63,986 nt of DNA from Gekko japonicus. Lineage: Eukaryota. Of the stretch, positions 10,969-59,331 are shown piece by piece. The first letter of the stretch is position 1. Every line of letters starts with the position of its first letter. The stretch is taken from assembly GCF_001447785.1 (NCBI RefSeq), contig NW_015170318.1, positions 83,181-147,166 on the forward strand, given 5' to 3'. The notes beneath the pieces were generated by a model, which was given only the letters and a program-made list of their open reading frames with translations, did not search any database and was not told the DNA's origin. The translations under genes were made by a program, and so were the position numbers.

Positions 10969-11400
10969 CTACGTGGAGGAGATGTAGCGGACCGGGAGCC
11001 CTTCCTTGCAGGTGACCCGGATCCTCGTAATTTTGCTCTCCCCCTTGTACCTGCAGAGCAACTTGCCCAGGAACCTCCTGCGCCTGCAGGTGGTGATGGG
11101 GAAGAGGATTTTGCTGCGGGTGTTGCCATCCATGATCTGCCCTCTGGAGTTGCAGATGGACTTCAGCTGCTCTTCGGTGGTGTGGATGAAGGTGTTCTTC
11201 CGCTGGCAGGCCATGCCTCTGCGGCTCATCATCTGTTTGCAGTAGTGGCTGTTGCTGCCGAAGTTCATTTTGGGGTTGTCCACGTGCTTCGTCAGAAAAG
11301 TTCTGTAGGTCGTGCCTTGGCAGGGCAGCCACAGACAGGCTGCCGTTGCCAGGAGCAGGAGGCAAAGGGTGTGGCCGGAGGGACCCCCGGGAGACACCAT
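10969..11400 (-). CDS. Secreted RNase A-superfamily protein (gene 1), predicted catalytically inactive, cationic, 143 aa
   Basis: True ATG at 11400 (ORF track starts at an upstream GTG). Signal peptide ends ...LWLPCQG; FLTKH keeps His12; CQRKNTF has Lys41->Gln; LPVR has His119->Arg; 6 mature Cys. Polypyrimidine+CAG acceptor at 11431; AATAAA (-) at 10667-10672. Confidence 0.93.
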   Translation of the reverse strand: MVSPGGPSGHTLCLLLLATAACLWLPCQGTTYRTFLTKHVDNPKMNFGSNSHYCKQMMSRRGMACQRKNTFIHTTEEQLKSICNSRGQIMDGNTRSKILFPITTCRRRRFLGKLLCRYKGESKITRIRVTCKEGLPVRYISST

Positions 11401-11491
11401 CACTGGGACCTTTGAAGTGGTGCTCTCGATCTGCAGAGGCGAGAGAAGAAGACAGGGGGGAAGAGCCTCACCTTCAACAGCTGCCAGAAGG

Positions 11492-11950
11492 ATAGGGTCG
11501 CCAGCCTCCAGCTGGGGCCTGGAGATCTCCCGCTTTTACAAGTGATCTCCTGCTGGCAGAACTCGGCTCCCCTGGAGGAAATGGCCGCTTTGAAGGGTGG
11601 ACTCTGTGGCATTGTACCATGCTGAGGCCCCTCCCCTCCCCAAACCCCGCCCTCTCCTGGCTCCACCCCCAAAGTCTCCAGGTCTTTCCCAACCCAGACC
11701 TGGCAAAACCCTACAGAAGTAACCCTGGGAAGGGTTGCTAGCTTCCGAGGATGGCCGGGGGGGGGGTCTCCTGGAATGACCACTAATCTCCAGACCACTG
11801 AGGTCTGCTCCCCTGGAGAAAGGACAGCCGCTTTGCCCAGTGGGGTCTCTGGCGTCCTATCCCTTCTGAGCCCCACCCCCAAATTCTTGCCCTCCCCAGG
11901 CACCACCCCCGAATTTCCAGGAACTTCCCAAACTGGAGTTGGCAACCCAG
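11492..11950. mobile_element. Abundant unclassified ~220-bp non-autonomous DNA element with AGGGTTGCCA-type TIRs (two adjacent copies; many more, e.g. ~16655-16880, 18803-18980, 20940-21185, 46050-46260, 53500-53720, 62715-63790)
   Basis: Recurrent agggttgccaa...tggcaaccct ends and tcccctggagaaaatggctgct core. Confidence 0.7.
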
Positions 11951-12071
11951 AGACATAAGAACATGAGAGAAGCCAGAGTTGGATCAGGCCAAGGGCCCAT
12001 CCAGTCCAGCTCTCTGTGTCACACAGTGGCCAGAAATAGCAGGGGCTATCAGGAGGTCCAACAGTGGGGCC

Positions 12072-12988
12072 AGGACACTAGGAGCCCTCCCACTGTTGCC
12101 TGCCCCCCAGCACAGATCTCTGCACAATCTAAGGAAGCTACAGTTTAGGGTCCTGACAATGTTCCCTCTAAGCTGTGGAGTCTTGTGAGCAAAAATTCTA
12201 CTCTGTGACCTACTGACATTAAAGTTGTGAGCGAGCCATTTGGCTACCGCATAAATTAGTTTTCTCTGGCGCCGTCCCTCCTGAGCTGAGACCAACATGT
12301 GTGAGCTGGAGGCTAAAAAGCTGTGAGCCGGCTCACACTAACTCAGCTTAGAGGGAACACCGGTCCTGGTGTTAGGGGGGCCTCCGTACCAACGGCCCTC
12401 CCCCCCACTCCTAAAAAGTACCGAATGACCATGTTGTGGGTCATCCCAGGGGGCCTGTTAAACTTGACAACGATCTCAATCTGGCCCTGGGCATAGGAGT
12501 TTTGTCAGGGGGGGGGGGAGGGGGCCTTTTATTAGGACACTAGGAGCCCTCCCACTGTTGCCTGCCCCCCAGCACAGATCTCTGCACAATCTAAGGAAGC
12601 TACAGTTTAGGGTCCTGACAATGTTCCCTCTAAGCTGTGGAGTCTTGTGAGCAAAAATTCTACTCTGTGACCTACTGACATTAAAGTTGTGAGCGAGCCA
12701 TTTGGCTACCGCATAAATTAGTTTTCTCTGGCGCCGTCCCTCCTGGGCTGAGACCAACATGTGTGAGCTGGAGGCTAAAAAGCTGTGAGCCGGCTCACAC
12801 TAACTCAGCTTAGAGGGAACACCGGTCCTGGTGTTAGGGGGGCCTCCGTACCAACGGCCCTCCCCCCCACTCCTAAAAAGTACCGAATGACCATGTTGTG
12901 GGTCATCCCAGGGGGCCTGTTAAACTTGACAACGATCTCAATCTGGCCCTGGGCATAGGAGTTTTGTCAGGGGGGGGGGGAGAGGGCC
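12072..12988. repeat. Near-identical tandem duplication, period 462 bp
   Basis: Units start 12072 and 12534; very few differences. Confidence 0.92.
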
Positions 12989-13160
12989 CATTTGATTCCT
13001 TGCCCACTGCTCTCGCTCTCTCTCTCTCTCGTTTATGGTTGCCATCTTCCAGGTGGGGACCTGGAGTTCTCCCAGAATTCCCGCTGGTCTCCAGGCAACA
13101 GAGACCAGCCTCCCCGGAGAAAATAGCTGCTTTGGAGGGTGGACTCTACGGCCTTGTACC

Positions 13161-13466
13161 TATAAAGTACTGAGCTGATGCACGGAGGAGTGATTTCAGC
13201 TCATACTTTATGAGGCTGCAGGATAAGTAAAGACGCTTAGTCTGGCCCGAGGCCAGCTTTTATCCCCATAGCAAAGCACACCCACACCCCTGTGATACAT
13301 TATAGACAGGGCACTCGATTCCCATAGGTCCCTTTCCGAATCCTAGCCCTCTGATAGGTGTGTGCTAGGATCTGTTCGGGCTGTTGTCTCTGTGAGTGAA
13401 GCTTGGGCCCTTCGCATGGCCACGTGCGGACCCGACCGTGTGCACGGTCGTACATGGCATACGACA
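13161..13466. mobile_element. Solo LTR, 306 bp, in the gene 1 intron
   Basis: 5-bp TSD GTACC; TA(TG decayed)...CA ends; interrupts another repeat cleanly. Confidence 0.65.
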
Positions 13467-14182
13467 GTACCCCAGAGAGGTCTCTGCCCTCCCCAGGCTC
13501 CACCTCCAAATCTCCAGGAGCTGGCAACCTGACATCATGCTAGAATCTCTGGGGGGGACCCCTCCTGCATCCCCCCCCGCTGCCTCCCCCAGTAATGAAT
13601 CTATGAAGCTGCTCCGTGCAGAGTCAGGTGACCGATCCACCCCCCTCTGCATGGTCGACACTGACTGGCAATGCACGAGATAAAGAAATCAGGCTGCTCA
13701 GCTACTGAGATTCCAGGTTACGATGAGGACAGGTGCAGGACACAGGGTTGCCAGCTCCAGGTTGGGAAATTCCTGGAGACTCGGGGAGGGGGGGCTGGGG
13801 AGAAAAGGGACCTCCCTGGGGTACCGTGCCACAGAGTCCACCCTTAAAAGCAGCCGTCTTCTCCAGGCAGGGCCGGCTCCAGCTTATTTTGCACCCTACG
13901 CGACGATCCCTTCGGCCCCCCCCAATGCGCCCACCAATTTTCAAAAATAAATGCATTTTAGGAAGAATGAAAAACACAAATAATCAAGAAACTCCCAGAG
14001 TATGGGGCCAGGTGCAGTTTGGTGCCCCTAAGGGCCGTCCCGCTCTAGGCGATCGCCTAGTTCGCCTAGTGCGTGAGCCGGCCCTGTCTCCAGGGGGGTT
14101 GGTCTCTGCAGCCAGGAGATCAGTTGTGATTTCCCCAAACATCAAGAGCATCACTGACCCAGACAGATTGTTCCCTCTATAG

Positions 14183-14470
14183 CAGGGGTGACCAAACTTG
14201 CTTAACGTAAGAGCCACATAGAATAAACATCAGATGTTTGAGAGCCGCAAGACATGGAAAAATGTTACAGGTTTTTACTGGGAAATATGCACATTTGCTT
14301 TTTGTTAACATTAAATGAGACTGCCAGCAATAATAACAAAAGCAGTAAAAGCAGATGTTGGTAATGATATTTATTTGTCCAATGATCGTTTGTTTGCTAA
14401 TGATATTTAGCTTCCCCAGCCGCCCTGCCGGGAGACACACAATTGTCGAGCTACAGTTTGGCCACCCCTG
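14183..14470. mobile_element. hAT-Charlie-like non-autonomous element (related 28331-28627)
   Basis: CAGGGGTG...CACCCCTG TIRs; TSD ctctatag/ctcaatag; second copy ctctagag/ctctaaag. Confidence 0.78.
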
Positions 14471-14786
14471 CTCAATAGCTTGTGGCTCATAGTCACTAAT
14501 GGACCTCTGCCCCATATGTTTATCCAATTCCCCCTTGAAGCTGTCTATGCTCATAGCTGCCACCACTTCCTGCAGCAGTGAATTCCACACGTTAATGACT
14601 CGTTGGGTGAAGAAGTACTTCCTTTTATCTGTTCTACGCCTACGGCTCATTAATTTCATGGAGTGCCCACAAGTTCTTGGATTGTGAGAAGGGGAGAAAA
14701 GGACTTCTTTCTCCGCCTTCTCTAGCCTCTCAGTCGCCCACGAGTGCAGCCTCTTTGGAAACGGGACATGATGGCTCTAAACTCAC

Positions 14787-14875
14787 CCAATCTTCGTGCT
14801 CTTGGCTTCCTCCTAGAAGGACTGCTGAGGCTCCCCGTCTCGGGCCTGGCTGCCTTCCAGGGCTCCTGTTATATA
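14787..14875 (-). promoter_or_regulatory. TATA box and non-coding exon 1 of gene 1
   Basis: TATATAA 14875-14869; donor TTGG|GTGAGT at 14786; predicts intron 14786-11431, the canonical two-exon RNase A gene layout. Confidence 0.7.
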
Positions 14876-15189
14876 TGGCCAGCCAGCACTCAGCGGTGGT
14901 GGAGAGGAAGAACTTCAGCCCCGGTTTAGTAACCCTGCATGTAGCAACCTTCTGAAGGTGGCGCTGGGTGGTCTGAATAAAATATAACAAGAGAAAAATG
15001 CTCAGCCCTTGCTCCTAAAGGGTTGCCAATTCCAGATTGGGGGAATTCTGGAGATTTGAAAGGGGAACCTGGGAAGGGGGGAATTTGGGGAAGGATTTCA
15101 CCCTACCTACGTATCAGGGCCGAAACCAAATTTGCACCAAGCTCCCCTGGGGCAGAGGCCCCAGAACCCGATCCTCAGAGGGCTGCTTG

Positions 15190-18100
15190 CTTCAGTCACA
15201 CTTCTTCACCACCAGGATCTGCTTCTGGTCTCAGACCACAGCAGAAGCAGACACATTTTTAACAAGAGCTGTCTGAAATTGCTACCTGCCAGGACCACAA
15301 TCTCCCTGTTTCCTGGGATATCGACAGTTTGAACATGCAGATCCATTCTACCACTAGGGAGGTGTTTTTTAAAAAAATCGCCTGTATATGCATGCATGCA
15401 CATGCGCACTTATGCATGTGCATGAATTTTGAACCTTTTGCAGTGTGTTCCATGGCTGAGGTGCTGCAATGATGTGGATGCTTGACCACTGGATGTCTCC
15501 ATGAGTAACCTGCAGCGGGGTGTGCTGTGTGGCGGATATGCCCCGCAACACTTTAAACCAGTTCAGTTAGAGGTGGCACCGTATCGCGCCAAACTGCCAG
15601 TCTGAACGCAACCATGATTAGATGTGACATATTGAAGCCAGACTGAAACTTTATGAAAACTTTCACCTTGTTTCCTTAACCCAAAGGGAGCAAAAGCTAA
15701 CAGCTAACAGCTGGTTTTGGATAGATTGTCAGTCAAAAATGCTACCTGTCAGAGAATCTGCCTGTCCCTGGTGGCAGGAACCTGGAGAAGCACCGCTGAG
15801 AACGTCTCCACCTCATCTCTCCCTCAGGCACTGGAGAGTCATTCCCAGCAAGAATAGGCCAGTGACTAAGCCGAAGGAAGACGCAAATGCTCACGTTACA
15901 CACATTCCACTGGGATCCCAGGGCTGGATTGGGCCCCTGAAGTAATTTGGTGGCCTTACCAATTATTACCCAAAGCATGGTAAAAAGTTTGCCCACAGTC
16001 GAAGAACAGAATAAGAGAAGAACAAAGTTTGAGTTCAGTGGCACCTGTAAGACCAGCAAAGTTTCATTCAAAGGTATGAGCTTTTGTGTGCACACACTTC
16101 CTCAGATGCATTGGAGTGGAAGCTAAGGGTTCACTGATATACGTAGAGCGTGAACAGCAAATCAGCATACAGCATAGTGACAATGTCTTAGCAGATGCAG
16201 AAAACTAAACAGGAATAACAAGTTACGTTTATGTGGTCACCATTTGTTGGGATCTAATTACAGGCAAAACACAGTGAACATGTCAAAACAGGAGACTGAT
16301 GGTATAAAAGGATCCTTCTTAATTGTGGGGTGCTAAGAATCATTAACTGAGACCAAGTTGTTATGCTCCATTTCCTCTTAAGCATGGATGGAGGTAAAAA
16401 AGAAGGTTCTTAGACCCGCTTTTCTCCTACCCAAAGGAGTCTCAAAGCACCTTATAATCTCCTTCCCTTCCTCTCTCAACACCTTGTGAGTCAGGTGGGG
16501 CTGAGAGAGCTCTAAAAGAGCTGTGACTGGCCCAAGGCCACCCAGCAGGCCTCATGTGTCTCAAAGCAGCAGTTCATAATCTCCTTCCCTTCCTCTCTCC
16601 ACAACTGGCACCTTGTGAGGCAGGTGGGGCTGAGTGAGAGAGCTGTGACTGGCTCCACCTCCAAAGTCTCCAGTTATTTTCCAACCCAGACATGGCAACC
16701 CTAGTGGATCCAGGAGAGGGCGGGGTTTGGGGAGGGGAGGGGCCTCGGCATGGCACAATGCCATACAGAGTCCACCCTTCAAAGCAGCCGTTTTCTCCAG
16801 GGGAGCTGATCTCTGTCAGCTGGGGATCAGCCGTAAAAGCGGGAGATCCCCAGGCCCCACCTGGAAGCTGGCAACCCTATCTCCAGGGGACCTTCACCTT
16901 ATCACTGCAGTATGCAGGTCAGCTGCAATTCCAGGACATCTCCAGGCCCCACAAAATTGCTACCTGCCAGGACCGCAATCTCGCTGTTTCCTGGGATATC
17001 AACAGTCTGAACATGCAGACCCATTCTACCACTAGGGAGGGTTTTAAAAAAAATCACCTGTATGTGCATGAATACCTATGCGCACTTATGCATGTGCATG
17101 AATTTTGAACCTTTTGCAGTGCGCCCCATGGCTGAGGTGCTGCAATAATGTGGATGCTTGACCACCGGATGTCTCCATGGGTAACCCGCAGCAGGGTGTG
17201 CTGTGTGGCGGATATGCCCCGCAACACTTTAAACCAGTTCAGTTAGAGGTGGCACCGTATCGCGCCAAACTGCCAGTCTGAACGCAACCATGATTAGATG
17301 TGACATATTGAAGCAAGACTGAAACTTTATGAAAACTTTCACCTTGTTTCCTTAACCCAAAGGGAGCAAAAGCTAACAGCTGGTTTTTGATAGATTGTCT
17401 GTCAAAAATGCTACCTGTCAGAGAATCTTTCTATCTTTCTGTCTATCCATGGTGGCAGGAACCTGGAGAAGCACAGCTGAGACTGTCTCCACCTCATCTC
17501 TCCCTCAGGCACTGGAGAGCAACTCCCAGCAAGAGTAGGCCAGTGACTAAGCCGAAGGAAGACGCAAATGCTTACGTTACACGCATTCCACTGGGATCCC
17601 AGGGCTGGATTGGGCCCCTGAAGTAATTGGTGCCCTTACCAATTATTACCCAAAGCATGGTAAAACGTTTGCCCACAGTTGGAAGAAGAACAGAATAAGA
17701 GAAGAACAAAGTTTGAGTTCAGTGGCACCTGAAAGACCAACAAAGTTTTATTCAAAGGGCTTTGGTGTGGACACACCCTTCCGCAGATGCATTGGAATGG
17801 AAGGTAAGGGTCCACTGATCTACGTAGAGCGTGGACAGCAAATTAGCATACAGCATAGTAACAATGTTTTAAAAGATGCAGAACACTAAACAGGAATAAC
17901 AAGTTACGTTTATGTGGTCACCATTTGTTTGGATTTAATTACGGGCAAAACACAGTGAACATGTCAAAACAGGAGACTGATGGTATAAAAGTTTCCTTCT
18001 TAATTGTTGGGTGATAAGAATAATTAACTGAGACCAAGTTGTTATGCTCCATTTGTTTCCTCTTAAGCATGGATGGAGGTAAGAAAGAAGGTTCTTAGAC

Positions 18101-18250
18101 CTGTTTTTTTCCTACCCGAAAGAGTCTCAAAGCAGTTCATAATCTCCTTCCCTTCCTCTCTCAACACCTTGTGAGGCAGGTGGGGCTGAGAGAGCTGTGA
18201 GAGAGCTGTGACTGGCCCAAGGCCACCCAGCAGGCCTCATGTGTCTCAAA
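15190..18250. repeat. Tandem segmental duplication, period ~1.68 kb, moderately diverged
   Basis: Anchors 15281/16959, 15568/17243, 15912/17593. Confidence 0.92.
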
Positions 18251-18600
18251 GCAGTTCATAATCTCCTTCCCTTCCTCTCTCAACACCTTGTGAGGCAGGT
18301 GGGGCTGAGAGAGCTCTGAGAGAGCTGTGACTGGCCCAAGGCCACCCAGCAGGCCTCATGTGTCTCAAAGCAGTTCATAATCTCCTTCCCTTCCTCTCTC
18401 AACACCTTGTGAGGCAGGTTGGGCTGAGAGAGCTCTGAGAGAGCTGTGACTGGCCCAAGGCCACCCAGCAGGCCTCATGTGTCTCAAAGCAGATCATAAT
18501 CTCCTTCCCTTCCTCTCTCCACAACTGGCACCTTGTGAGTCAGATGCAGCTGAGAGAACCCTGAGAGAGCTGTGACTGGCCCAAGGTCACCCAGCAGGCT
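18124..18600. repeat. SINE-derived minisatellite, 119-bp unit x ~4
   Basis: gtctcaaagcag starts at 18124, 18243, 18362, 18481. Confidence 0.92.
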
Positions 18601-26932: not shown

Positions 26933-27379
26933 ATGAGGCCTTTGGGAGGCAAGTGTTGTTTCCTGCTCCTGTTGCTGGTGGCCGAATTGCTGCCCGGATC
27001 CTCCGGCGGCAACAACCCCCGCTACGAGAAGTTCCTGAACCAGCACCGGGACGATCCCAGGAGCAGTTTCCACGGCCGGTACTGTGACGGCCTGATGCGC
27101 AGCCGGGGCCTCACCAAACCCGAGTGCAAGGAAGCGAACACCTTTATCCATGGCTCCAAGAGGCGGATCCGGGCAGTGTGCGGCCAGGGGGGGGTTCCCA
27201 GCGGACAGCTGCAGCGCAGCCGGCAGCCGTTCCGGGTCACCAGCTGCACCCTGAGGGGCGGCTCCACCCGCCCGCCCTGTGAGTACAAGGAGAATACCTC
27301 GCCCAGGTACATTGTCATCGGCTGTGAAGACGGCTGGCCCGTCCATTACGATGAGAGCCAGATCGTGACCACTGTCTGA
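26933..27379 (+). CDS. Angiogenin-like secreted ribonuclease (gene 2), intact catalytic triad, 148 aa
   Basis: ATG 26933 follows acceptor-like AGs at 26905-06 and 26920-21. Signal peptide; RYEKFLNQH, CKEANTFIH, GGSTRPPC, GWPVHYDES closely parallel angiogenin motifs; 6 Cys. AATAAA 27607-27612 with GT-rich downstream element. Orthology to ANG not established. Confidence 0.96.
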   Translation: MRPLGGKCCFLLLLLVAELLPGSSGGNNPRYEKFLNQHRDDPRSSFHGRYCDGLMRSRGLTKPECKEANTFIHGSKRRIRAVCGQGGVPSGQLQRSRQPFRVTSCTLRGGSTRPPCEYKENTSPRYIVIGCEDGWPVHYDESQIVTTV

Positions 27380-32451: not shown

Positions 32452-32872
32452 TGAAGATACCTGTTCAGTTTGAACACATGAAGCTGCCTTATACAAAATC
32501 AGACGTCTGGTCCATCAAAGTCAGTCTTGTCTACTCAGACTGGCAGCCGCTCTCCAGGGTCTCGGGCTGAGGTCTTTCCCAACACCTCCTACCTGAACCT
32601 TTTGACTGGAGATGGTGGGGATTGAACCTGGGACCTCCTGCACGCAAAGCAGATGAAGATACCTGTTCGGTTTGAACACATGAAGCTGCCATACAAAATC
32701 AGACGTCTGGTCCGTCAAAGTCAGTCTCGTCTACTCAGACTGGCAGCGGCTCTCCAGGGTCTCGGGTAGAGGTCTTTCCCATCACCTCCTACCTGAACCG
32801 TTTGACTGGAGATGGTGGGGATTGAACCTGGGACCTCCTGCACGCAAAGCAGATGCTCTGCCACAGAGCCAC
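32452..32872 (-). mobile_element. Tandemly duplicated tRNA-derived SINE with CR1-like tail; related copies ~4873-5000(+), 39172-39355(-)
   Basis: B-box ggttcaatccc; two ~200-bp units starting 32452 and 32655. Confidence 0.7.
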
Positions 32873-33944
32873 AGATCACTGGGATTGGGCCAAGGGCTGC
32901 AACGAGAGTTTGAATCTTGGTGTGTCTCTGTTGACCAGGAGAGAAGACCACAGTCTGGATAAGGCCAGAGGGCGCTGCACCTTCTCTCAGAGACACATCT
33001 AGGGATTTTTCCAAAAATAGCCTTTAAGATTTTCAACATGGCAATTCCCATTCAGTGCCAGATTCCACAGCCAACAACTGAGTACACNNNNNNNNNNNNN
33101 NNNNNNNNNNNNNNNNNNNNNNNNNNNNNNNNNNNNNNNNNNNNNNNNGGCTTACAAACTCCTTTCCCTTCCCCTCCCCACAACAGACACCCTGTGAGGT
33201 GGGTGGGGCTGAGAGAACTCTGACACAAACTGCTCTTTTTCAAGGACAGCTGTGCCAGAGCTTGTGACTGACCCAAGGTCACATCAGCAGGTGCAAGTGG
33301 AGGAGTGGGGAATCAAACCCGGTTCTCCCAGATTAGAGTCCGCGCACTTAACCACTACACCAAACTGGCTCTCCAGAAGGAATGCAGCAGTACTTGGTAC
33401 ACAGGGCAAGCAAGCATCCCACCCCCAACCATTATGGCAGCATAGCTGACATTTAGTGGGTAAGAACCAGTCGTCTGACTATAAAAGTTTCAGGTTGAAA
33501 AAAGAAAGACCAGAGGCAGCCAACACACCCTCTAAGCTATGGAGACTTGTGAGCAAGAATTCTATTTGTGAGCTACTAGCATTAAAGTTGTGAGTGAGCA
33601 ATTTGACTACTGCATAAATTAGTTTGCTCTGGAGCCCTCCTTCCTGAGCTATAAGACAAGAATGGGTGAGCCGGAGGCTAAAAAACTGAGCTAGCTCACA
33701 CTCACTCAGTTTATTTATTTATTTATTTATTTGTCACATTTATATCCCACACCTAGGGTTGCCAAGTCCCCCCGGGGGGCAGGGAAACCCCCACTCAACA
33801 GGCCTGTTCCCCCCCGGTGTGGATCGGGCTGCCCGGGGGGACCCCACCCCCAAAGCGTGCGACGTGCCCGGCGTGAACACGTCACCCGTGCTGCTGATGT
33901 TATGTTAGGGCCAGGGCCAAGATATTAAGGGAGGCCCCCTAATT

Positions 33945-34920
33945 GAAAGCCTGGCGGAAGAGCTCCATTTTACAGGCCCTGCGGAACTGTACAAGGTTCT
34001 GCACGACCCTGATGTCATCCATGAGCTCATTCCACTAGTAAGGGGCCGCCACAGAGAAGGCCCTGACCCTTGTTGCAGCCAGCCTGGCTTCTTTAGGGCC
34101 CGGGAGGACCAGGCAATTTTGGGATCCCAATCTTAGTGCTCTCTGGGGAACATGTGGGGAAAGGCGGTCCCTCAGGTAAGTAGGTCCCTGACCATATAGG
34201 GCTTTAAAGGTAAGAACCAGCACCTTGAACCGAATCCGGTATGCTATAGGCAGCGAGTGCAGCAATTTTAGGGAAGCTGGATGTATTTTCCCACATAGGA
34301 AGACACAACAACAGCCTCGATGCTGCATTCTGCACCTGCCGCAGCTTCCAGATTTGAGACAAGGGCAGCCCCATGTAGAGAGCATTGCAGTAGTCCAATC
34401 TCGAGGTGACCATTGCATGGATCACTGTTGCCAGGTCATCGCGTTCGAGGAAGGGAACCAACTGCCTGATCAGCCGAAGATGGTAAAAGGCCGACTTGGC
34501 AGTGGCTGCTACCCGGGCCTCTATCGTTAAGGAGGCATCCAGGAGCACTCCCAAACTCCTAACCTCCGGCGCTGGCACTAGCGGTGCCCCATCGAAGGTC
34601 AGGAGAGGGATCCTTAACCCTGGCCCACTCTGACTCAGGCACAGGACCTCCGTCTTCGTCGGATTCCATTTCAATCGACTCAGTCTAAGCCAACCAGCCA
34701 CGGCTTTCAACGCCAGGTCCAGGTCTCCTGGACTAGAGTCTGGCTGGCTGTTCAACAACAGATACAGCTGGGTGTCATCTGCATACTGTTGACAATCCAG
34801 CCCATGCCTCCGGGCAATCTGGGCAAGGGGGCGCATATAGAGGTTAAGTAACATCGGGGAGAGCACTGCCCATTGGGGCACTCTGCATATTAGCAGGTGC
34901 CTTCTGGATAGCCGTTCCCT
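33945..34920 (-). mobile_element. L2-clade LINE RT fragment
   Basis: PQWAVLSPMLLNLYM, YADDTQLYL, TSRLDYCN, VQNAASR, RAFSVAAP; nested inside a split hAT MITE. Confidence 0.9.
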
Positions 34921-43176: not shown

Positions 43177-43608
43177 ATGTCCCCCAAGATCTCCTTCTGG
43201 CTGCTGCTGCGTTTGGCCGTCCTTCTGGCAGCTCTTCTGGTACAGTCCAGCGAAGGGGCCACCTACCAGGATTTCAGAAACAGGCACATAGATCATCCGA
43301 AAACCAGAGCCGCCAACAACAACGCCTACTGCAACCTCATGATGAGGCGGAGAGGCATGATGAATCGCACTTGCAAGCCCACCAACACGTTCATCAACAA
43401 CAGCCCCAACCACATCCAGCATGTCTGCCGCGGGGGAGGGCGCCGGGTGAATAGGAATATTTTCGAAAGCAGAAGGCGTTTCAGTGTCATCACCTGCCGC
43501 AGTAGAGGCCGTTTCCCTAACTGCCAATATGTCGGCAGAAGACAGAGCAAGAGAATCCGTGTGGGCTGCGTCCGCAGCCTGCCCGTCCACTTTGACAGGC
43601 TCGTCTAG
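43177..43608 (+). CDS. Highly cationic, Arg-rich secreted RNase A-family protein (gene 3), intact triad, 143 aa
   Basis: Signal peptide to ...SSEG; FRNRH, CKPTNTF, LPVHFD; 6 Cys; acceptor ttttccgtAG at 43154-43155; hand count 23 Arg in about 116 mature residues. Confidence 0.96.
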   Translation: MSPKISFWLLLRLAVLLAALLVQSSEGATYQDFRNRHIDHPKTRAANNNAYCNLMMRRRGMMNRTCKPTNTFINNSPNHIQHVCRGGGRRVNRNIFESRRRFSVITCRSRGRFPNCQYVGRRQSKRIRVGCVRSLPVHFDRLV

Positions 43609-46387: not shown

Positions 46388-46985
46388 TGCATGCCATCTG
46401 ACCCGGCTGGCCCAGGCTACCCTAGTCTTGCCAGATCTCGGAAGCTACGCAGGGTCAGCCCTGGTCAGCATTTGGATGGGAGACCATCAAGGAATACCAG
46501 GGTCACTACACGGAGGTAGGCATGTCGCGCAGTCTCGCGCAGTATGCGTCACCGGGTCAGCTTTCAGCCAAAGATCCAAATTGCACCCTGCTAAGATCCC
46601 ACTGCAGTAAACCACGCTCACACAGTTCTTGCGGTTGACTGTATACAGCGATTTATTTCCAATATATACAGCTCTCTCCGTCAAAGTGCTCCGCCATACG
46701 CTCATACAAATAGAAGGGAATACAATGTACAGACTACACACACTTATATACACTTGACCAGCCAACCAGCTTACTGCAGAGTCACAGTGAGGTAGCTCAG
46801 CTTAGCTCCAGTCAGAATGGTTTGCTCTGGTTCTTCAGACTGTCAGACACCTGTCAAATAGATTGGCATGATCACACGTGCTGAAGCTTTATACCTCTCA
46901 ACAAGGCAATGGCAAACCATCTGTGAACGTCTCTTGCCTTGAAAACCCTACGGGGTCGCCACAGGTTGGCTGGGACGTGACATCC
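46388..46985 (+). mobile_element. 5S rRNA-derived SINE with RTE-like tail, interrupted by a solo LTR; related copies ~560-690(-), 20000-20131(-), 21950-22158(-), 30570-30772(-)
   Basis: gatctcggaagcta.gcagggtc...tggatgggagacc matches the 5S internal control region; followed by ggcaaacc...gccttgaaaacccta tail. Confidence 0.75.
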
Positions 46986-47802
46986 AAAGACAGAGCCAGG
47001 TTCCCCCTATCAGGGAGCCCTAAAGCTTGAAGTGATAGCAGAGTTCTGTCGGTGCCGTCTGATCTGTGAATTCACACATGCCAGTCAGTGTTCCCTCCAA
47101 GCCACCGGTTCCCGAAATGGGCAACACTGCTGGAACGATCCAGGTGGGCGGTAGGAGGGAGGTAGGCATGTCGCGCAGTCTCGCGCAGTATGCGTCACCG
47201 GGTCAGCTTTCAGCCAAAGATCCAAATTGCACCCTGCTAAGATCCCACTGCAGTAAACCACGCTCACACAGTTCTTGCGGTTGACTGTATACAGCGATTT
47301 ATTTCCAATATATACAGCTCTCTCCGTCAAAGTGCTCCGCCATACGCTCATACAAATAGAAGGGAATACAATGTACAGACTACACACACTTATATACACT
47401 TGACCAGCCAACCAGCTTACTGCAGAGTCACAGTGAGGTAGCTCAGCTTAGCTCCAGTCAGAATGGTTTGCTCTGGTTCTTCAGACTGTCAGACACCTGT
47501 CAAATAGATTGGCATGATCACACGTGCTGAAGCTTTATACCTCTCAACAAGGCAATGGCAAACCATCTGTGAACGTCTCTTGCCTTGAAAACCCTACGGG
47601 GTCGCCACAGGTTGGCTGGGACGTGACATCCAAAGACAGAGCCAGGTTCCCCCTATCAGGGAGCCCTAAAGCTTGAAGTGATAGCAGAGTTCTGTCGGTG
47701 CGGTCTGATCTGTGGATTCACACATGCCAGTCACTGTTCCCTCCAAGCCACCGGTTGCCGAAATGGGCAACACTGCTGGAACGGTCCAGGTGGGCGGTAG
47801 GA
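46512..47802. repeat. Near-identical tandem duplication, period 646 bp
   Basis: Units start 46512 and 47158; duplicates the solo LTR with both TSDs. Confidence 0.92.
46523..46903 (-). mobile_element. Solo LTR, 381 bp (second copy 47169-47549)
   Basis: TG...CA ends; 5-bp TSD AGGCA; TATA then AATAAA on the minus strand. Confidence 0.82.
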
Positions 47803-49491
47803 GTCTTGGGTGCAAATTGGTCACTGCATCTTTTTTTAATCCACTTTTTCAAGATAGATTTCCAGGGGGGCCCTGAGTAAAAAAAAAAATCCTGAAAAGT
47901 GGGCAGTGGGCCAAATAAGTCTGGGAACCTCTGCTCTAAGCTGAGTGAGTGTGAGCTAGCTCACAGTTCTTTAGCCTCCAGCTCACAGATTTCTTTTCTT
48001 TGCTCAGGAAGGGATGGCTCCAGAGCAAACTGATTTATGCAGCAGCCAAATCGCTCACTCAGAACTTTAATGTCAGGAGCTCACAAAGTAGAATTTTTGC
48101 TCACAAGACTCCACAGCTTAGAGCAGTGGTGGTGAACCTATGGCACGGGTGCCAGAGGCGGCACTCAGAGCCCTCTCTGTGGGCACGCGTGCCATCGCCC
48201 CAGCCAGGCCCAGACCATCATTAAAGTGTTGAATTATCTGCCAAATAATTTTAAGTAAATGAAAGCATTTGGGATTGCTTTCCTTACTTTGTTTGGATCA
48301 TCTTAAGTTAATGTATGAGTTGTTTTTTCTAAACTACAACCTCAGTAGTCAGGTAAACTAATTTCTGCAGCAGCCAAATCGCTCGCTCAGAACTTTAATG
48401 CCAGGAGCTCACAAAGTAAATTTTTGCTCACAAGACCCCACAGCCTAGAGGGACCCTTGATGCCGGTGGCCACTTGTTGCTGCTTATACCTGGTATTATG
48501 GATTACGTGCGTATACCTGTGAGATGCACAGATGCTTACATTTGAATTACCTAATCATTCCCATTCAACAGTCAGTCTCACACATTTCTTAATTTTCTCA
48601 CCTCTTTCATATGTGCACCGCAATGTCATGTGCAAAAGCCCTAGATTCTGAAGGCCTGGGCTGCTGACGAGGTTTGGTTTGGAATTGGGTTTTTGCTCTT
48701 ATCAAATTTATGAGCAGCTGGAATCTTCATAAACAGGGCTTTTTTTGTAGAAAAAGCCCAGCAGGAACTCATTAGCATATTAGGCCATACCCCTGACAGC
48801 ACAGCTCTCTCCCAGGATCGGCTTCCCTAGGTGCCCCACGGCTTACGGGACGGCTGGGGAACCTGAGGGAAGAAAGGCAGTTTAAACTGCCTTCCCTCCC
48901 TGGATTGGCTTGGCTTCCCCAGGCGCTCTGCGGCTTGTGAGGCACCTGAGGAACCCGAGGGGGAGAGGCTGTAGGCGTGGCCAACTCAGAAGCCAGCCGC
49001 AACTCCGTTCCTGTGCGTTCCTGCCCCAAAATAGCCCTGTTTATAAAAGTTCCATAGCAGCTGCCCACCTGGTGGTCAAGCATTTCCCTGGGCGTGCACG
49101 AAAGGGCCAGGAGAACTAAGCAAAGCTGCAACCCTTCCCGCCCTCCCTCTCATGATCTGCCTCAGTTCACAGACTAGAACTGGCTTTAGAAAGTGGGTGG
49201 GGCTAGGGGGAGCTTCTGCCCAGCAAGGCTTCTGATTGGCCATTGGAGATGTGACTGGCTCTGCAGATTTTTTTCAAAGCATTGCTTTGGCAGCAACTGC
49301 CACCACTGCCCACGGATCTTCACTGTGCGTCTGGAGCTAAGCTGCAGCAGCCAACCTCAAGTGGTGGCCATTTTGTGGCTGCACCCACCACCCTGCGTCG
49401 TAATTCCAAAGGTACCTGCAGGCTCAAAAAGGATGGGGACACTGATCTCTCAAACCAGAATATTTTTTTAAAAGCTCTCTTGTTAAATTGT

Positions 49492-50690: not shown

Positions 50691-50901
50691 CTTGTTTTCC
50701 AGTAGGATTGAGCAAAAGGGCACCTGCAGAGTTGAGTCTATTCAGGGCTTTTTTTTTCTGGGGGAAAACGCTGGAACAGAGTTCTGGAACCTCTTTGACA
50801 AAATTCTTTTTAAAATGTTTAAAAGTTCTTGAGTTTTCAGTAAACAGATTGAAAACTTCATTTCCCTCTTGAGAGTTCTGGAACCTCTTTTTCAAAAAAA
50901 A

Positions 50902-51610
50902 CACCAACCCAAAACAGGATCTATTAATGGCATGCCCACAGAGGCAGAACTTTTTTTTAAGGGGGAAGCAGGTTTTTGAACCTCTTTTAAGGATACAGCG
51001 GCAATGGCTGTTACCACAGCTCCTTTGGGTCTCCTTTAACAGTGGTTAAAAAAAAAAAATCAGTATCAGGATAATCTAACACTGACCTTCTTCAGTCCCG
51101 TAGCTAAGGACTTTTTAGGGAGGGGGCCTGGGGGGACCCCCGCCTGCTAATCCAATCAAAGGTTCCGGGGCGAGGGCTGCAGCAGCCCCAGCCTATGGGT
51201 CCATCTCCCCCCCCCCAGGAGCCCCAGTGCCTCTTTCCGCAGCACAGCACCAACCCAAAACGGGGTCTATTAATGGCATGCCCACAGAAGCAGAACTTTT
51301 TTTTTTTTTAAGGGGGGGGGGGGAAGCAGGTTTTTGAACCTCTTCTAAGGATACAGCGACAATGGCTGTTACCACAGCTCCTTTGGGTCTCCTTTAACAG
51401 TGGTTAAAAAAAAAAAATCAGTATCAGGATAATCTAACACTGACCTTCTTCAGTCCCGTAGCTAAGGACTTTTTAGGGAGGGGGCCTGGGGGGACCCCCG
51501 CCTGCTAATCCAATCAAAGGTTCCAGGGCGAGGGCTGCAGCAGCCACAGCCTATGGGTCCATCTCCCCCCCCCCAGGAGCCCCAGTGCCTCTTTCCGCAG
51601 CACAGCACCA
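50902..51610. repeat. Near-identical tandem duplication, period ~350 bp
   Basis: caccaacccaaaac at 50902 and 51248; differences mainly in homopolymer lengths. Confidence 0.9.
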
Positions 51611-52894: not shown

Positions 52895-53006
52895 TATAAA
52901 ATCAATCACTTGTTTCCTCCACAGCCCTTCCTCCATTTTGTGCTGCCAAGAACCATCTAAGGTGAAGACTGCAAGCAGTGGAGAACTCGAAAGCATTTGG
53001 GTGCAG
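52895..53006 (+). promoter_or_regulatory. TATA box and non-coding exon 1, probably of gene 4
   Basis: TATAAAA 52895-52901; donor CAG|GTCAGT at 53007 (or TTGG|GTGCAG at 53001); exon end resembles gene 1 exon 1 end (cgaa..attgggtg). Confidence 0.55.
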
Positions 53007-54767: not shown

Positions 54768-55087
54768 CAGTGATGGCGAATCTTTTAGAGACCGAGTGCC
54801 CAAACTGTGACCCAAAACCCACTTATTTGTTGCAAAGTGCCAACACGGCGATTTAATCTGAATACTGAGGTTTTACTTTAGAAAAAAACAACTCATACAT
54901 TAACTTAAGATGACCCAAACAAAGTAAGGAAAGCAATTCCAAATGCTTTCATTTACTTAAAATTATTTGGCAGAGAATTCGACGCTTTAACGATAGTCTG
55001 GGCCTGGCTGGGGCGATGGCACGCGTGCCCGCAGAGAGGGCTCTGAGTGCCGCCTCTGGCACCCGTGCCATAGGTTCGCCACCACTG
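54768..55087. mobile_element. hAT non-autonomous element (partial inverse copy ~48124-48352)
   Basis: CAGTG(A/G)TGGCGAA TIRs; TSD caatagga/ccatagga. Confidence 0.78.
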
Positions 55088-55440
55088 CCATAGGAGAAGC
55101 CACATCTATGCAACCTTCACGTGCATTTTGTAGCAGAAGAAGAAACAGAGGCCTAATCCAAATAATACTATTTTCCCTATTACAAGTGGCCTGCATGTGT
55201 GTGGCAAAATCCTGGGTGTGCCCCTGGTTTGCACAGGAGACATCCACAGTAGCCACCTCCCGCAAGATCAGGAGACCAAAGGCAGAGAAAGAGGAGTCAG
55301 AGAGAAGCTTCTAGCATAGACAGAGGAAGGCTTCACACATAGCGCCAAGGGAAATACAGGGCTCTCCAGTGTCCAGGAATTGTGAGTCGCCTTTACTCCA
55401 ACACTTCCTCTCCCTTTCTTCTCCAGCGAAGGACTCAGCC

Positions 55441-55875
55441 ATGGTCTTTCTCTCCTTACCGCTCCCGTTCTCCGTCCTCTTCCTGGTTTCCTTGGTGGAC
55501 AAGAGCCAAGCTACTTACCAGACTTTCCTGAGGGAACACGTCGACCCCATGCGGATTATAATCAACCCCCATTTCTACTGTCAGGAGAAGATGAAAGCCC
55601 AGGGCCTGACGAGTCCCACCTGTACGGAAAAGAACACCTTCATCCACGCCAGCAACATCCAAGTCAAAACTATCTGTGGTGTCGGAGGAATGCATTCCAG
55701 CAACACCTCTTCGGACAGCCTGGCCAGCTACATAATCACGACCTGCCATTCCAGTGGGGGCTCCCCCCCAGACGACTGCAAATACAGAGGCCAAGGCGAG
55801 CGCCGGAGGATTCGGGTGACCTGCTCCAGAAGGGTCCCTGTGGGCATCATAAAAATCCTCACTACCTGGCCCTGA
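55441..55875 (+). CDS. Secreted RNase A-superfamily protein (gene 4), predicted catalytically inactive, 144 aa
   Basis: Strong Kozak gccATGg at 55441 after a long polypyrimidine tract and AG at 55425-26. FLREH keeps His12; CTEKNTF has Lys41->Thr; VPVG has His119->Gly; 6 Cys. Confidence 0.92.
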   Translation: MVFLSLPLPFSVLFLVSLVDKSQATYQTFLREHVDPMRIIINPHFYCQEKMKAQGLTSPTCTEKNTFIHASNIQVKTICGVGGMHSSNTSSDSLASYIITTCHSSGGSPPDDCKYRGQGERRRIRVTCSRRVPVGIIKILTTWP

Positions 55876-55961
55876 GACGTTGGGGCCGTCAGGACCCTTC
55901 GTTGCACTGGCGGGGAATCCGGGGACGTTCCGGGACATCCCCGACGTGATGACATCACCCA

Positions 55962-57820
55962 TAAATTTGTTTATTGATTATTTATTTGTGGTATTTTTAT
56001 CCCGCCCTCCCCACAAGCAGGCTCGGGGCAGCTTAAATTACCGTATTTTCCAGCGTATAAGACGACTGGGCGTATAAGACGACCCCCAACTTTTCCAGTT
56101 AAAATATAGAGTTTGGGATATACTTGTTTTGTTTTTCGGTTGTTTGCTACGCTCAAAGCGCAGCATGTACTACTGAAAGCGATAGAAAGACCAGAGTACC
56201 GTATTTACCGGGGTATAAGACGACCCCCCATTTCTGAGAAGATTTCCCTGGGTTAAAAAGTAGTCTTATACACCGGAAAATACAGTACTTGGCACAGTGT
56301 ACCGAGTGCATAGAAAACAGCGAAAACCATTGAAAACAAACAAACCGATTTACAATTAAAGTGCTCACCGTGTTATTAAATCAAGATGGCGTACCATACG
56401 GTGTGGCATCCAAGCACCCAGCTCTGTGGTCTCCCAGCATATCAAGCTAATATGGCTCACTTTCAACGACGGCCAGCCCAACGCCACCGATGTTAATAGT
56501 GGACGTTAATGGTAGTGGTGGGTGGCTCCTAATTGAAGACCTGGTGGAAGAGCTCCGTCTTGCAGGCCCTGTGGAATTGCAGAAGATCCCCCAGGGCGCT
56601 GATCTCCTCCGGGAGCTCATTCCACCAGTAAGGAGCCGCCACAGAAAAGGCCCTGGCCCTGGTGGCAGCGAGCCCAGCCTCCTTGGGGCCTGGGATGACT
56701 AGTCGATGTTGCGACCCCAACCGTAGTGCTCTCTGGGGTATATATGGGGAAAGACGGTCCCTCGGGTATGTCGGACCCTGGCCATATAGGGCTTTAAAGG
56801 TATGTACCAGCACCTTGAAGCGAATCCGGTATGCTATTGGCAGTCAGTGCAGTGCCTTCAGCACAGGCCGAATATGCTCCCGTCTAGGGATACACATCAG
56901 CAGCCTGGCCGCAGCATTCTGCACTAGCTGCAGCCTCCGGATTTGGGACAGGGGCAGCCCCATGTAGAGAGTGTTGCAGTAGTCTAATCTTGAGGTGACC
57001 ATCGCATGGATCACTGTAGCCAGGTCGTCGGCCAGGTCGTCGCGAACGAGGTACGGGGGCAACTGCCGAACCAGCCGAAGATGGTAAAAGGCCGACTTAG
57101 CAGTGGCTGCAACCTGGGCCTCCATCGTCAATGAGGGATCCAGGAGCACTCCCAAGCTCCTAACCTCTGACGCAGGCACCAATGGTGCCCCATCGAAGGC
57201 CGGGAATGGGAGCCCAAGCCCCGAGCCGCCCCGACTCAGGCACAGGACCTCCGTCTTTGCCGGATTTAAGCTTCAGCCAACTCAGCCTGAGCCAACCAGC
57301 CATGACGTGCAATGCCCAGTCCAGATCTTCCGGTCTGGAGCCCGACTGGCCGCCCAACATCAGAGAGAGCTGAGTGTCATCAGCGTATTGATGACACCCC
57401 AACCCATACCTCCAGGCTATCTGGGTAAGGGGGCGCATATAGATGTTAAAGAGCATCGGGGACAGCACCGCCCCCTGAGGCACTCCGCACTCAAGCGAGT
57501 GCCTCCGGGACTGCTGTTCCCCTAGCACCACCCTTTGTCCCCGACCTCGGAGAAAGGAAGCAAGCCATTGCAAGGCAAGCCCCTGTATCCCCACGTTGGC
57601 AAGGCGGCGGGTCAGCAACTGGTGGTCAACCATGTCAAACGTGTCCGACAGAACTAACAACAACAGTGCTGCAGCGCCTTGATCCAGATGTCTCCGGAGG
57701 TCGTCAGTCAAGGCGACCAGTGCAGTCTCCGTCCCATATTCCGGGTGAAAGCCAGACTGGAAAGGGTCTAAGACGGAAGCGTCATCCAGAAAGCCCTGTA
57801 GCTGTATCACCACCACCCTC
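55962..57820 (-). mobile_element. 5'-truncated L2-clade LINE (RT and 3' tail)
   Basis: DPFQSGF, TETAL, GVPQGAVLSP, YADDTQL, SRLDYCN; AT-rich tail at ~55962-56030; interrupted by a Tigger-like MITE. Confidence 0.9.
56041..56285. mobile_element. Tc1/mariner-Tigger-like MITE
   Basis: TA|CCGTATTTTCC...GGAAAATACAG|TA; internal gtataagacgac repeats. Confidence 0.75.
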
Positions 57821-58260
57821 TTCACTTCCAGGCAACACCATTATGTTGGGGATGTTGTACAGCGACATCCCTGTCTGGGGGTGGGGTTTACCCCACTGGC
57901 CAGCTACCTGGCAATGGGCAGAAGTCACAAAAACCAGGGGAACCCCCGGATCTACCAGCAAGAGCACTGCCGAGCCGCCTAATCGCAGCCGCATCAATGA
58001 TGTCATCATGTCGGTGATATCGGGGGCCATGCTCTGGTTTTTGGGCAAAACTCTATGGTAAAACTGGCTTCAAACCAGAGAGTTTTGCCCTCAAACCAGA
58101 GCGTCGCTGTGCAACATTCCCAACATGATGACATCACTTCCAGGCAACATTATTGTGTTGGGGATGTTGCACAGCGGCATCCCTGTCTGGGGGTGGGGTT
58201 TACCCCACTGGCCAGCTACCTGGCAATGGGCAGAAGTCACAAAAACCAGAGGAACCCCCT
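57821..58260. repeat. Direct repeat of ~125 bp, offset ~310 bp, inside a TE
   Basis: tcacttccaggcaaca...ggaaccccc at ~57822 and ~58134. Confidence 0.8.
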
Positions 58261-58929
58261 GCCCGGACCTTGGGACTGGTAACCCTATGAGATGTCCAAC
58301 CCGTGTTAGACCTGCAGATGACTTCTCCATTTAAAGTTGGGTTGCCAGGCAGCGGAAAGATTCTGGGGTGGCAGAATCCCAGGAGAAACATTTAAAGGAA
58401 AAATAAGGCTTCATCTACTTACAGGAAGTTCCTACCATAGAGTTCCTAGCAATTCTGAGAGCTATAGGCTTGCCAAGTCCCCCGGGGGGCATGGAAACCC
58501 CCACCCCAGAGGCCCGTTCCCCGCCGCCGGCGGATTGGGCCCCGGAGGGAACTCCACCTCGACGTACACGTTACCCGGAAGTGATGCGACCACGCCGGGC
58601 ACACTGGGGGCGGGACCACGGTCATTCAAGGGAAAACTCTATGGTTTTCCCTCAGATGGTCGTGGCCCCGCCCCCAGTGTGCCCACGTCACTTTTGGGTG
58701 ACGTGGATGCGGCATGCGCACGCTCCAGCCACAAGACAGGAGTCCCCCACTGTGGCGAAAAAATAACTTGGGAACCCTAGAGAGCTACCTGGAAGTGACA
58801 AAAGGTGCTCTAGGAATTACCAGAAACTCTGAAGTGTTCTTACCATAGTCTTTCCAACAATTCCTAAAGTTACCCTTTGTCATTTCAGGGTAGCTCTAGG
58901 ACTCGCCAGGAACTCTATGGTAAGAACTT

Positions 58930-59331
58930 CCTGTATGCAGACAAGGCCTCGTTCTTCTTTTTAATTGTTCTTCTGCCGCCACTCCCAGTGGTGGTGGGGG
59001 CAACGGGACCTGGGAGTGAGGGATCCACCACTCCTCCCCCGGGAGGGCATGGCAGCTCTGACTTCAAGACCCGTTTTAACTGAAGGGGTCTCCTCCAAGA
59101 TTTTTTTTTGGGGGGGACAGCAATGCCCTTGCACAACAAGTCTGCAGCCTCTTCTCAGTGACCTTCTGTCTCTTACATGCGCTCCACCAGTGATAGGCTG
59201 CATTTACTCTGGCTTTGGATAAGCAGTGTGTTCAAAACATGATTATTCATAGTTTCCGTCTAAGTCCTGATGACACTCAGGAAGTTCTAGGGCTACAAAA
59301 CTGGAAAAGCTCATTTAAAATACACGTCCAT
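58930..59331 (-). pseudogene. Probable decayed RNase A-family pseudogene
   Basis: ATG at 59331, 31 nt after a ccccAG (59364-63), then a stop-riddled hydrophobic leader. YE*SCFEHTAYPK (59251-59213) has the YxxxxxxH-xxxPK spacing of the paralogs; with frameshifts NAAY, ACKRQ, TEKRLQTC and RRP-FS follow. Read by eye. Confidence 0.4.

What the first reader, a model, noticed from the sequence alone, without database searches (positions are those of the whole stretch)
10969..59331. Compact birth-and-death RNase A cluster with apparent division of labour
Seen: four highly divergent paralogs in ~45 kb. Hand-counted mature net charges are about +18 (gene 1, dead), +8 (gene 2, active ANG-like), +22 (gene 3, active) and +7 (gene 4, dead), plus a probable pseudogene. 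This gives all four combinations of catalysis and cationicity in one locus. Known: RNase A families expand and turn over quickly in host defence (e.g. rodent eosinophil-associated RNases). Inference: a squamate host-defence cluster that decouples membrane activity from RNase activity.
Basis: partly seen in the sequence, partly recalled or inferred. Interest (0 to 1): 0.75.

Follow-up and report, generated by a model that had tools for sequence, protein, structure and literature searches.

The report
Lizard-and-snake catalytically dead RNase lineage
This gecko DNA holds four old, conserved RNase A genes, one from a lineage kept across lizards and snakes that lacks a key catalytic residue and likely acts as a positively charged membrane- or surface-binding defence protein rather than as an enzyme.

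Summary
Four intact RNase A genes are real, with the stated charges (+18, +8, +22, +7). Gene 1 (K41Q, H119R) and gene 4 (K41T, H119G) have broken catalytic triads; genes 2 and 3 keep theirs. The fifth 'pseudogene' near 59.1-59.3 kb scores at chance level.

The four are not recent births. Each has its own orthologue lineage, and accession order suggests the same gene order in Gekko kuhli and Podarcis. Turnover sits on top of this backbone: Heteronotia, Hemicordylus and Lacerta carry extra copies, and G. japonicus has a recent gene-1 duplicate that diverged at dN/dS of about 1 or more.

The neat 2x2 design is weak, because gene 4's orthologues in two other geckos are +15 and +18.

The best result is gene 1's lineage. 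It is found in geckos, a skink, lacertids, an agamid and snakes. None of 27 sequences has Lys41, 23 of 27 keep His119, all are cationic, and they carry a basic-hydrophobic loop. It looks like a conserved squamate pseudo-RNase, not found in nine literature searches. Its function (likely catalysis-independent defence) is inferred and untested.

The parts
10969..11400 (-). Gene 1 CDS: RNase A-fold protein, 143 aa, triad H12/Q41/R119 (predicted inactive), mature net +18, basic-hydrophobic loop; member of the squamate-wide K41Q lineage
10660..11430 (-). Gene 1 coding exon with 3' UTR: splice acceptor AG at 11432-11431, AATAAA at 10672-10667
   Evidence: sequence; a 908-nt contig of run X1 matches 10660-11431 with 0 differences, and its other 136 nt lie off the laid stretch
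14787..14972 (-). Predicted upstream, likely non-coding, exon of gene 1: GT donor at 14786, TATA-like element at 14875-14869; its 5' end is not determined
   Evidence: database gene model P0001 maps here; donor and TATA read from the sequence; not covered by the read lay
26933..27379 (+). Gene 2 CDS: angiogenin-like RNase, intact triad, net +8, the most conserved member (lepidosaur-wide, including tuatara); head-to-head with gene 1
43177..43608 (+). Gene 3 CDS: Arg-rich RNase, intact triad, net +22; orthologues in geckos, lacertids, an amphisbaenian and a viper; sister to a crocodile RNase
55441..55875 (+). Gene 4 CDS: RNase A-family protein, triad H12/T41/G119 (predicted inactive), net +7; orthologues found only in geckos
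59112..59331 (+).

Best explanation
The window holds four anciently diverged, secreted-type RNase A genes whose lineages are conserved across geckos or wider, and gene 1's lineage lacks the catalytic lysine in all 27 sequences tallied and likely works without RNA cleavage, as a cationic protein that binds and damages microbial or other anionic surfaces.

Shown: four lineages; broken or intact triads that are stable per lineage; an intact predicted fold for gene 1; an exon-bounded contig for gene 1; lineage-specific duplications, including a recent and strongly asymmetric gene-1 duplicate in this species.

Inferred: gene 2 is an angiogenin-like enzyme under strong constraint. Gene 3 is an active, very cationic (ECP-like) defence RNase. 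Gene 1 uses its basic-hydrophobic loop and overall charge for catalysis-independent action. Gene 4 is a gecko-only dead paralogue that has lost charge in Gekko and may be drifting.
For: IQ-TREE of 67 rows: the g1-type clade is 100/98 (16 rows, including one unnamed long branch), g4 100/99, squamate g3 100/97, and the g2-containing clade 99/94. Each window gene's nearest other-species row is its G. kuhli counterpart.

Order: G. kuhli accessions KAL8176481-84 are g4, g3, g2, g1 in sequence; Podarcis lilfordi has CAI5791096 (g3), 101 (g2) and 102 (g1). A Phrynosoma g2 model's N-terminal 140 aa are 66-80% compatible with an in-register antisense g1-type frame, against 28-39% for g2-g4, so the head-to-head layout appears conserved.

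g1 tally: position 41 is Q in 25, A in 1, R in 1 and K in 0 of 27; H119 is kept in 23 of 27; net charge +9 to +25. The loop between the last strand cysteines has a median of 4 K/R and 3 hydrophobic residues, against Gly/Pro-rich loops in g2 and g4. g2 keeps the triad in 28 of 28 and g3 in 17 of 18. AlphaFold model of g1: pLDDT 94, TM 0.93 to turtle egg-white RNase 2zpo.

Literature: K40Q angiogenin is described as enzymatically inactive (PMC3973227 and PMC3288110, passages). ECP and RNase 7 kill bacteria independently of catalysis, and non-canonical RNase 9 is bactericidal (PMC6313885, passages).
Against: No activity, tissue or infection data were obtained. Charge alone does not prove killing, and the Iguana RNase is active but not antimicrobial.

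H12 and H119 are kept in most g1-type sequences, which fits residual catalysis or RNA binding as well as it fits a membrane role. Mammalian non-canonical RNases are mainly epididymal, so a reproductive role is a live alternative.

Two raw-read RNA runs of unknown tissue showed essentially no gene-1 reads: depth 0 over the exon in X15, and at most 1 over part of it in X16. Synteny rests on accession order and one mis-built gene model, not on DNA; no genome was held. The 27 tallied sequences include near-duplicate records and close relatives, so they are not 27 independent events. Relationships between the four lineages are poorly resolved.
Confidence: 0.5

Rival explanations
1. The g1 lineage is a reproductive-tract or glandular secretory protein (sperm coating or maturation, or a gland secretion), the reptile counterpart of mammalian RNases 9-13, with charge serving surface binding rather than killing.
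For: Mammalian non-canonical RNases are mostly epididymal. Steady conservation between a lacertid and a snake (63% mature identity) with a fixed K41Q suits a non-immune role. Gene 1 was near-absent from two deep raw-read RNA runs, which fits tissue restriction.
Against: Gene-1 words were held by 14 listed runs from 5 studies (kinds guessed or unknown, tissue not given, only two of these holders laid). Repeated duplication and fast change in geckos fit either role.
Confidence: 0.22
2. The g1 lineage keeps a weak or altered catalytic or RNA-binding function through H12, T45 and H119, so it is not truly dead; only the H119R copies (window gene 1, three Heteronotia copies) have lost it.
For: H12 in 27 of 27 and H119 in 23 of 27. 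The fold is intact.
Against: The same substitution inactivates angiogenin. H119R appears in both Gekko and Heteronotia, and those frames stay open.
Confidence: 0.15
3. The window's own genes 1 and 4 are decaying copies under relaxed selection: gene 1 is the spare after a recent duplication, and gene 4 is on its way to loss in Gekko.
For: The g1 end branch is 0.25 against 0.016 for its duplicate. The dN/dS lower bound of 1.07-1.28 is not significantly above 1 (p 0.37-0.53). g4 has lost charge relative to other geckos, and the G. kuhli and Sphaerodactylus g4 models lack the last strand.
Against: Both ORFs are open with all 6 Cys. Gene 1 has 28 changes from its duplicate with net charge unchanged at +18 and an exon-bounded contig in run X1. 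This rival cannot explain the squamate-wide retention of the lineage.
Confidence: 0.25
4. One reading: a young birth-and-death cluster, with a pseudogene, whose four members were sorted into all four combinations of catalysis and charge.
For: Charges and triads are as stated. Copy-number turnover is real in several lizards.
Against: The four lineages are old and apparently syntenic. The pseudogene is at chance level. g4 orthologues are +15 and +18.
Confidence: 0.08

Closest known systems
Angiogenin / RNase 5-like RNases (mouse Ang4 2j4t, rat ANG 4qfi)
   Same: Gene 2: six Cys, intact H/K/H triad, best single-domain PDB hits are angiogenins (E 2.7e-40), and it groups with rat ANG.
   Different: Angiogenic activity, nuclear import and 1:1 orthology to mammalian ANG were not tested.
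Eosinophil cationic protein (RNase 3), RNase 7, chicken RNase A-2
   Same: Secreted-type, strongly cationic RNase A-fold proteins. ECP and RNase 7 kill without catalysis; chicken A-2 is bactericidal. Genes 1 and 3 match in charge (pI 10.5 and 11.8).
   Different: ECP and RNase 7 are canonical RNases with the catalytic motif and 8 Cys; genes 1 and 3 have 6 Cys, and gene 1 has lost K41. The resemblance is in charge only.
Mammalian non-canonical RNases 9-13
   Same: RNase A-type proteins with three disulphides, a signal peptide and a broken catalytic triad.
   Different: Those lack the CKxxNTF signature. g1-type proteins keep the motif except for the Lys, and usually both His. They group with sauropsid RNases, but RNases 9-13 were not in the tree, so an independent origin is inferred rather than tested.
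Green turtle egg-white RNase (2zpo) and turtle RNase expansions
   Same: Closest solved sequence and structure to gene 1 (E 1.6e-20, TM 0.93). A Pelodiscus protein also has Q at position 41 and falls weakly next to the g1 clade (85/68).
   Different: 2zpo keeps K41 and H119 and a Gly/Pro loop where gene 1 has its basic-hydrophobic loop.
Rodent eosinophil-associated RNases (birth-and-death model)
   Same: Tandem duplication with fast amino-acid change is seen for gene 1 and its duplicate, and in Heteronotia, Hemicordylus and Lacerta.
   Different: Here the four window genes form an old backbone shared across species, not a species-specific bush.

Membership tests
RNase A superfamily | Pfam RnaseA above the curated cut-off | tested here: met
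   4 of 4 genes, 70-109 bits against 23.1
RNase A superfamily | Signal peptide, at least 6 conserved Cys, single coding exon | tested here: met
   hydrophobic leaders of 24-29 aa judged by eye and 6 Cys each; whole CDS in one ORF with an upstream acceptor-like AG
RNase A superfamily | RNase A fold | tested here: met
   gene 1 model pLDDT 94, TM 0.93 to 2zpo; gene 4 Atlas model matches RnaseA clusters; genes 2 and 3 not folded
Canonical (active) RNase A | H12/K41/H119 triad and CKxxNTF in genes 2 and 3 | tested here: met
Canonical (active) RNase A | H12/K41/H119 triad and CKxxNTF in genes 1 and 4 | tested here: not met
   g1 H/Q/R, g4 H/T/G
Canonical (active) RNase A | Measured ribonucleolytic activity | not testable with these tools
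   needs an assay
Angiogenin (RNase 5) for gene 2 | Six Cys and grouping with mammalian ANG | tested here: inconclusive
   6 Cys; the 22-row clade with rat ANG is 99/98 but also holds a long-branch bat RNase 4, and only two mammal rows were included
Angiogenin (RNase 5) for gene 2 | Angiogenic activity and nuclear translocation | not testable with these tools
   needs an assay
Mammalian non-canonical RNases 9-13 for genes 1 and 4 | Loss of the catalytic triad | tested here: met
Mammalian non-canonical RNases 9-13 for genes 1 and 4 | Descent from the mammalian RNase 9-13 lineages | not tested
   no RNase 9-13 row was identified in either tree; g1 and g4 group with sauropsid RNases
Mammalian non-canonical RNases 9-13 for genes 1 and 4 | Epididymal expression | not testable with these tools
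   run tissues are not given
Birth-and-death gene cluster | Paralogues cluster by species, not by orthologue | tested here: not met
   the four window genes cluster by orthologue; species-level clusters occur only within lineages
Birth-and-death gene cluster | Pseudogenes in the cluster | tested here: inconclusive
   none above chance in this window; the rest of the scaffold was not available
Birth-and-death gene cluster | Lineage-specific copy-number change | tested here: met
   Heteronotia 3 g1-type and 3 g3-type, Hemicordylus 4 g2-type, Lacerta agilis 3 g3-type, G. japonicus 2 g1-type

The most novel reading that the evidence does not exclude
Squamates evolved their own non-canonical RNase, independently of mammalian RNases 9-13. 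A single K41Q change fixed before geckos split from other lizards and snakes turned an RNase into a purely membrane-active antimicrobial armed with a new basic-hydrophobic loop. It sits head-to-head with the angiogenin-like gene, and in geckos it is being duplicated and diversified under positive selection, with repeated loss of H119.
Probability: 0.3. Interest if true: 0.65.

Novelty: new variant of a known kind. Interest (0 to 1): 0.42.

Why it matters
Decoupling of killing from catalysis in RNase A proteins is known from mutants of mammalian enzymes, and catalytically dead RNases are described mainly as a mammalian, epididymal group. A lineage that has carried the K41Q substitution across lizards and snakes is a natural experiment. 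It allows a direct test of whether the non-enzymatic host-defence role is enough to keep an RNase gene alive. The H119-keeping and H119-losing duplicates in one gecko give a matched pair for that test. The cluster as such is an ordinary RNase A locus whose relatives are already auto-annotated as 'ribonuclease-like' or 'angiogenin-like'.

Tried and rejected
Fifth RNase or pseudogene: tblastn, blastn, nhmmer and hmmsearch with 4-gene and 237-domain profiles and frameshift-aware scans gave nothing above controls. The DNA alignment test was uninformative because its positive controls also scored at null level.

Own-genome search: no genome is held, so the duplicate's position and the flanking genes could not be read. 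A Pfam scan of 150 of 193 long stop-to-stop frames found only retroelement domains, so there is no flanking-gene synteny from this window.

Positive selection on gene 1 is not shown. The relative-rate test gave 19 against 2 with G. kuhli as outgroup (p 2e-4) but 11 against 6 with Euleptes (p 0.33). The dN/dS bound was 1.07-1.28 (not significant) when all unexplained changes were counted as synonymous, and 2.6 (p 0.012) only when 3' UTR sites were added. Gene conversion of the flanks is not excluded.

Sequencing-run search: no RNA holder listed on record. Expression of genes 2-4 was not tested.

Literature: nine searches (two of these were for background on K40Q and chicken RNase A-2) showed no study of the squamate RNase cluster or a K41Q lineage. 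The library lacks most subscription papers. Nitto 2005 and 2006 were seen only as cited in reviews, and supplements were not read; Figure S9 of PMC6794472 aligns reptile RNases and may include such sequences.

Earlier scan notes: none. No complex prediction was run. Scripts stopped with an error after printing the values cited; one search gave nothing.
Full report
Observation. The window carries four intact single-exon ORFs of the RNase A family: g1 10969-11400(-), g2 26933-27379(+), g3 43177-43608(+) and g4 55441-55875(+). The mature chains are 32-43% identical, have six Cys each, and carry net charges of +18, +8, +22 and +7. Against solved structures and a 235-row alignment, g2 and g3 keep H12/K41/H119, g1 has H/Q/R and g4 has H/T/G. 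g1 is identical to a Gekko japonicus protein. The rest of the window gave only retroelement domains among 150 of 193 long frames scanned.

The pseudogene. Near 59.1-59.3 kb the + strand has words resembling the second half of an RNase, but only with two or three frameshifts and with no first half. Ordinary searches saw nothing; the best score in the 58-60 kb bins was 26.9 bits, against 28.1 on the reversed window. A frameshift-aware scan scored it 39 half-bits, a score reached by 33 of 150 resampled controls. A reptile-weighted profile ranked it 61st to 115th of 238 tiles, depending on the penalty. The DNA comparison lacked power. It is unsupported, though not excluded.

Age and order of the four genes. 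Homologue searches found a separate set of relatives for each gene, and an IQ-TREE analysis of 67 rows puts each in its own clade. g2 has relatives across lizards and tuatara; tuatara split from squamates about 250 million years ago (PMC7393497, abstract in listing). g2 is 96%, 88% and 84% identical to its G. kuhli, Euleptes and Zootoca counterparts. g3 has relatives in geckos, lacertids, Rhineura and a viper, with a crocodile RNase as sister. g1 has relatives in geckos, a skink, lacertids, Pogona and an 11-member snake cluster. g4 relatives were found only in four other geckos. In G. kuhli the four counterparts have consecutive accessions in the order g4, g3, g2, g1, and Podarcis lilfordi shows g3, g2, g1 in the same order. 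A Phrynosoma g2 model has a 140-aa extension that reads as the antisense of a g1-type gene (66-80% codon-compatible against 28-39% for the others), so the head-to-head pair appears old. This is indirect synteny, since no genome was held.

Turnover. On this backbone copy number varies: three g1-type and three g3-type proteins in Heteronotia, four g2-type in Hemicordylus, and three g3-type in Lacerta agilis. G. japonicus has a second g1-type protein (P0002) that is not encoded in the window. It differs from g1's model at 1 of 101 positions over the leader and upstream exon, but at 28 of 114 mature residues. The two are sisters (98/86), with end branches of 0.25 for g1 and 0.016 for P0002. Run X5 holds contigs of both types; the second differs at 39 of 402 nt, and three listed changes match P0002 residues (worked by hand). 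At least 32 of the 39 changes are needed for 26 amino-acid differences, giving dN/dS of at least 1.07-1.28, not significantly above 1. Purifying selection between the duplicates is therefore not evident, and relaxation cannot be told from adaptation.

The g1 lineage. Among 27 g1-type records, some of them near-duplicates, position 41 is Gln in 25, Ala in 1, Arg in 1 and Lys in none. H12 is kept in all and H119 in 23; the window copy and three Heteronotia copies have Arg instead. Net charge is +9 to +25. The loop that is Gly/Pro-rich in g2 and g4 is basic and hydrophobic here (median 4 K/R and 3 hydrophobic residues). The g1 model is confident (pLDDT 94, lowest at residues 81-90, in this loop) and matches turtle egg-white RNase at TM 0.93. 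A contig of run X1 covers exactly 10660-11431 with no difference, from just past the AATAAA to the splice acceptor, and goes on for 136 nt off the stretch. That is the shape of a spliced transcript, although the run's kind is only guessed as RNA. Two raw-read RNA runs of unknown tissue had essentially no g1 reads.

The 2x2 design. By clade, g2 is intact (28 of 28) with core charge +4 to +9, g3 is intact (17 of 18) with +16 to +26, and g1 is broken and cationic. None of 5 g4-type sequences shows a full triad (two models are cut short), and the two full-length orthologues are +15 and +18. Three states are stable; the fourth is particular to Gekko and may reflect drift.

Mechanism (inferred). K40Q angiogenin is described as inactive (PMC3973227, PMC3288110; passages), so g1-type proteins are predicted not to cleave RNA, and the window copy, also lacking H119, still less so. 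A gene kept intact across squamates without catalysis needs another function. ECP and RNase 7 kill bacteria independently of catalysis, and RNase 9 is bactericidal without a catalytic site (PMC6313885, passages). Reviews tie killing to cationic residues and hydrophobic patches (PMC12602997, PMC5852591; passages). I therefore judge a surface-binding, membrane-damaging defence role most likely (0.5). The alternatives are a reproductive or glandular role, residual catalysis, and relaxed decay of the window's own copies; these are not all mutually exclusive. Against over-reading: the Iguana RNase is active but not antimicrobial (PMC5964141, passage), and nothing functional was tested here.

Comparison and novelty. 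All four are members of the RNase A superfamily, and their database relatives carry automatic names. g2 and g3 meet the canonical sequence test; g1 and g4 fail it. They work like, but are not shown to descend from, mammalian RNases 9-13. Goo and Cho describe reptiles as having 3-5 RNase genes and place the large expansion in early mammals (PMC3845642, abstract and passages). PMC6794472 discusses reptile RNases only through iguana and turtle (passages; supplement not read), and an agamid genome paper notes an angiogenin expansion (PMC12400805, passage). Nine searches of a library that lacks most subscription journals showed no account of a squamate K41Q lineage. Verdict: an ordinary kind of cluster whose birth-and-death character was overstated, holding one apparently undescribed and testable variant. 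Interest 0.42.

Noticed in passing
window 6300-8850 (+): Broken LTR-retrotransposon-like pol region: RT (below cut-off) at 7618-8088 and RT-RNase H at 8265-8843, about 2 kb downstream of gene 1.
   Followed up: no
window 33938-34919 and 56528-57521: Two reverse-transcriptase fragments, likely LINE remains, 78.6% identical over 995 nt.
   Followed up: no
window 12072-12988, 46512-47803, 50902-51610, 32452-32855: Two-copy tandem duplications of 200-646 nt at 94-99.6% identity; the 99% ones could be assembly artefacts.
   Followed up: no
window 14787-16175 (-): The database models of gene 1 and its duplicate (226 and 246 aa) add N-terminal extensions read through a TATA-like element and the upstream exon; likely annotation artefacts.
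   Followed up: partly
protein P0062: A second G. japonicus gene-2 record, one residue different, on a 3.5-kb contig; allele, haplotig or recent duplicate.
   Followed up: no
protein P0092 (unnamed): A g1-related protein with triad H/W/Y and core charge +2, sister to the g1 clade; possibly a further dead paralogue, organism unknown.
   Followed up: partly
proteins P0116, P0133, P0033, P0098, P0246 (turtles): Several turtle RNases also have broken triads (H119R in Chelonoidis, Pelusios and Carettochelys; K41N in Emydura; K41Q with H119Q in Pelodiscus), suggesting repeated catalytic loss in sauropsids.
   Followed up: partly
proteins P0025 and P0144: The G. kuhli and Sphaerodactylus gene-4 models diverge after the fifth Cys and lack the last strand. 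The G. kuhli tail resembles window 59264-59284 only weakly (E 0.41), so this may be a mis-spliced model or a broken gene.
   Followed up: partly
window 58380-58975: Inverted-repeat-bounded stretch (58380-58464 against 58975-58891, 78% identical), possibly a small DNA transposon, just upstream of the supposed pseudogene.
   Followed up: no
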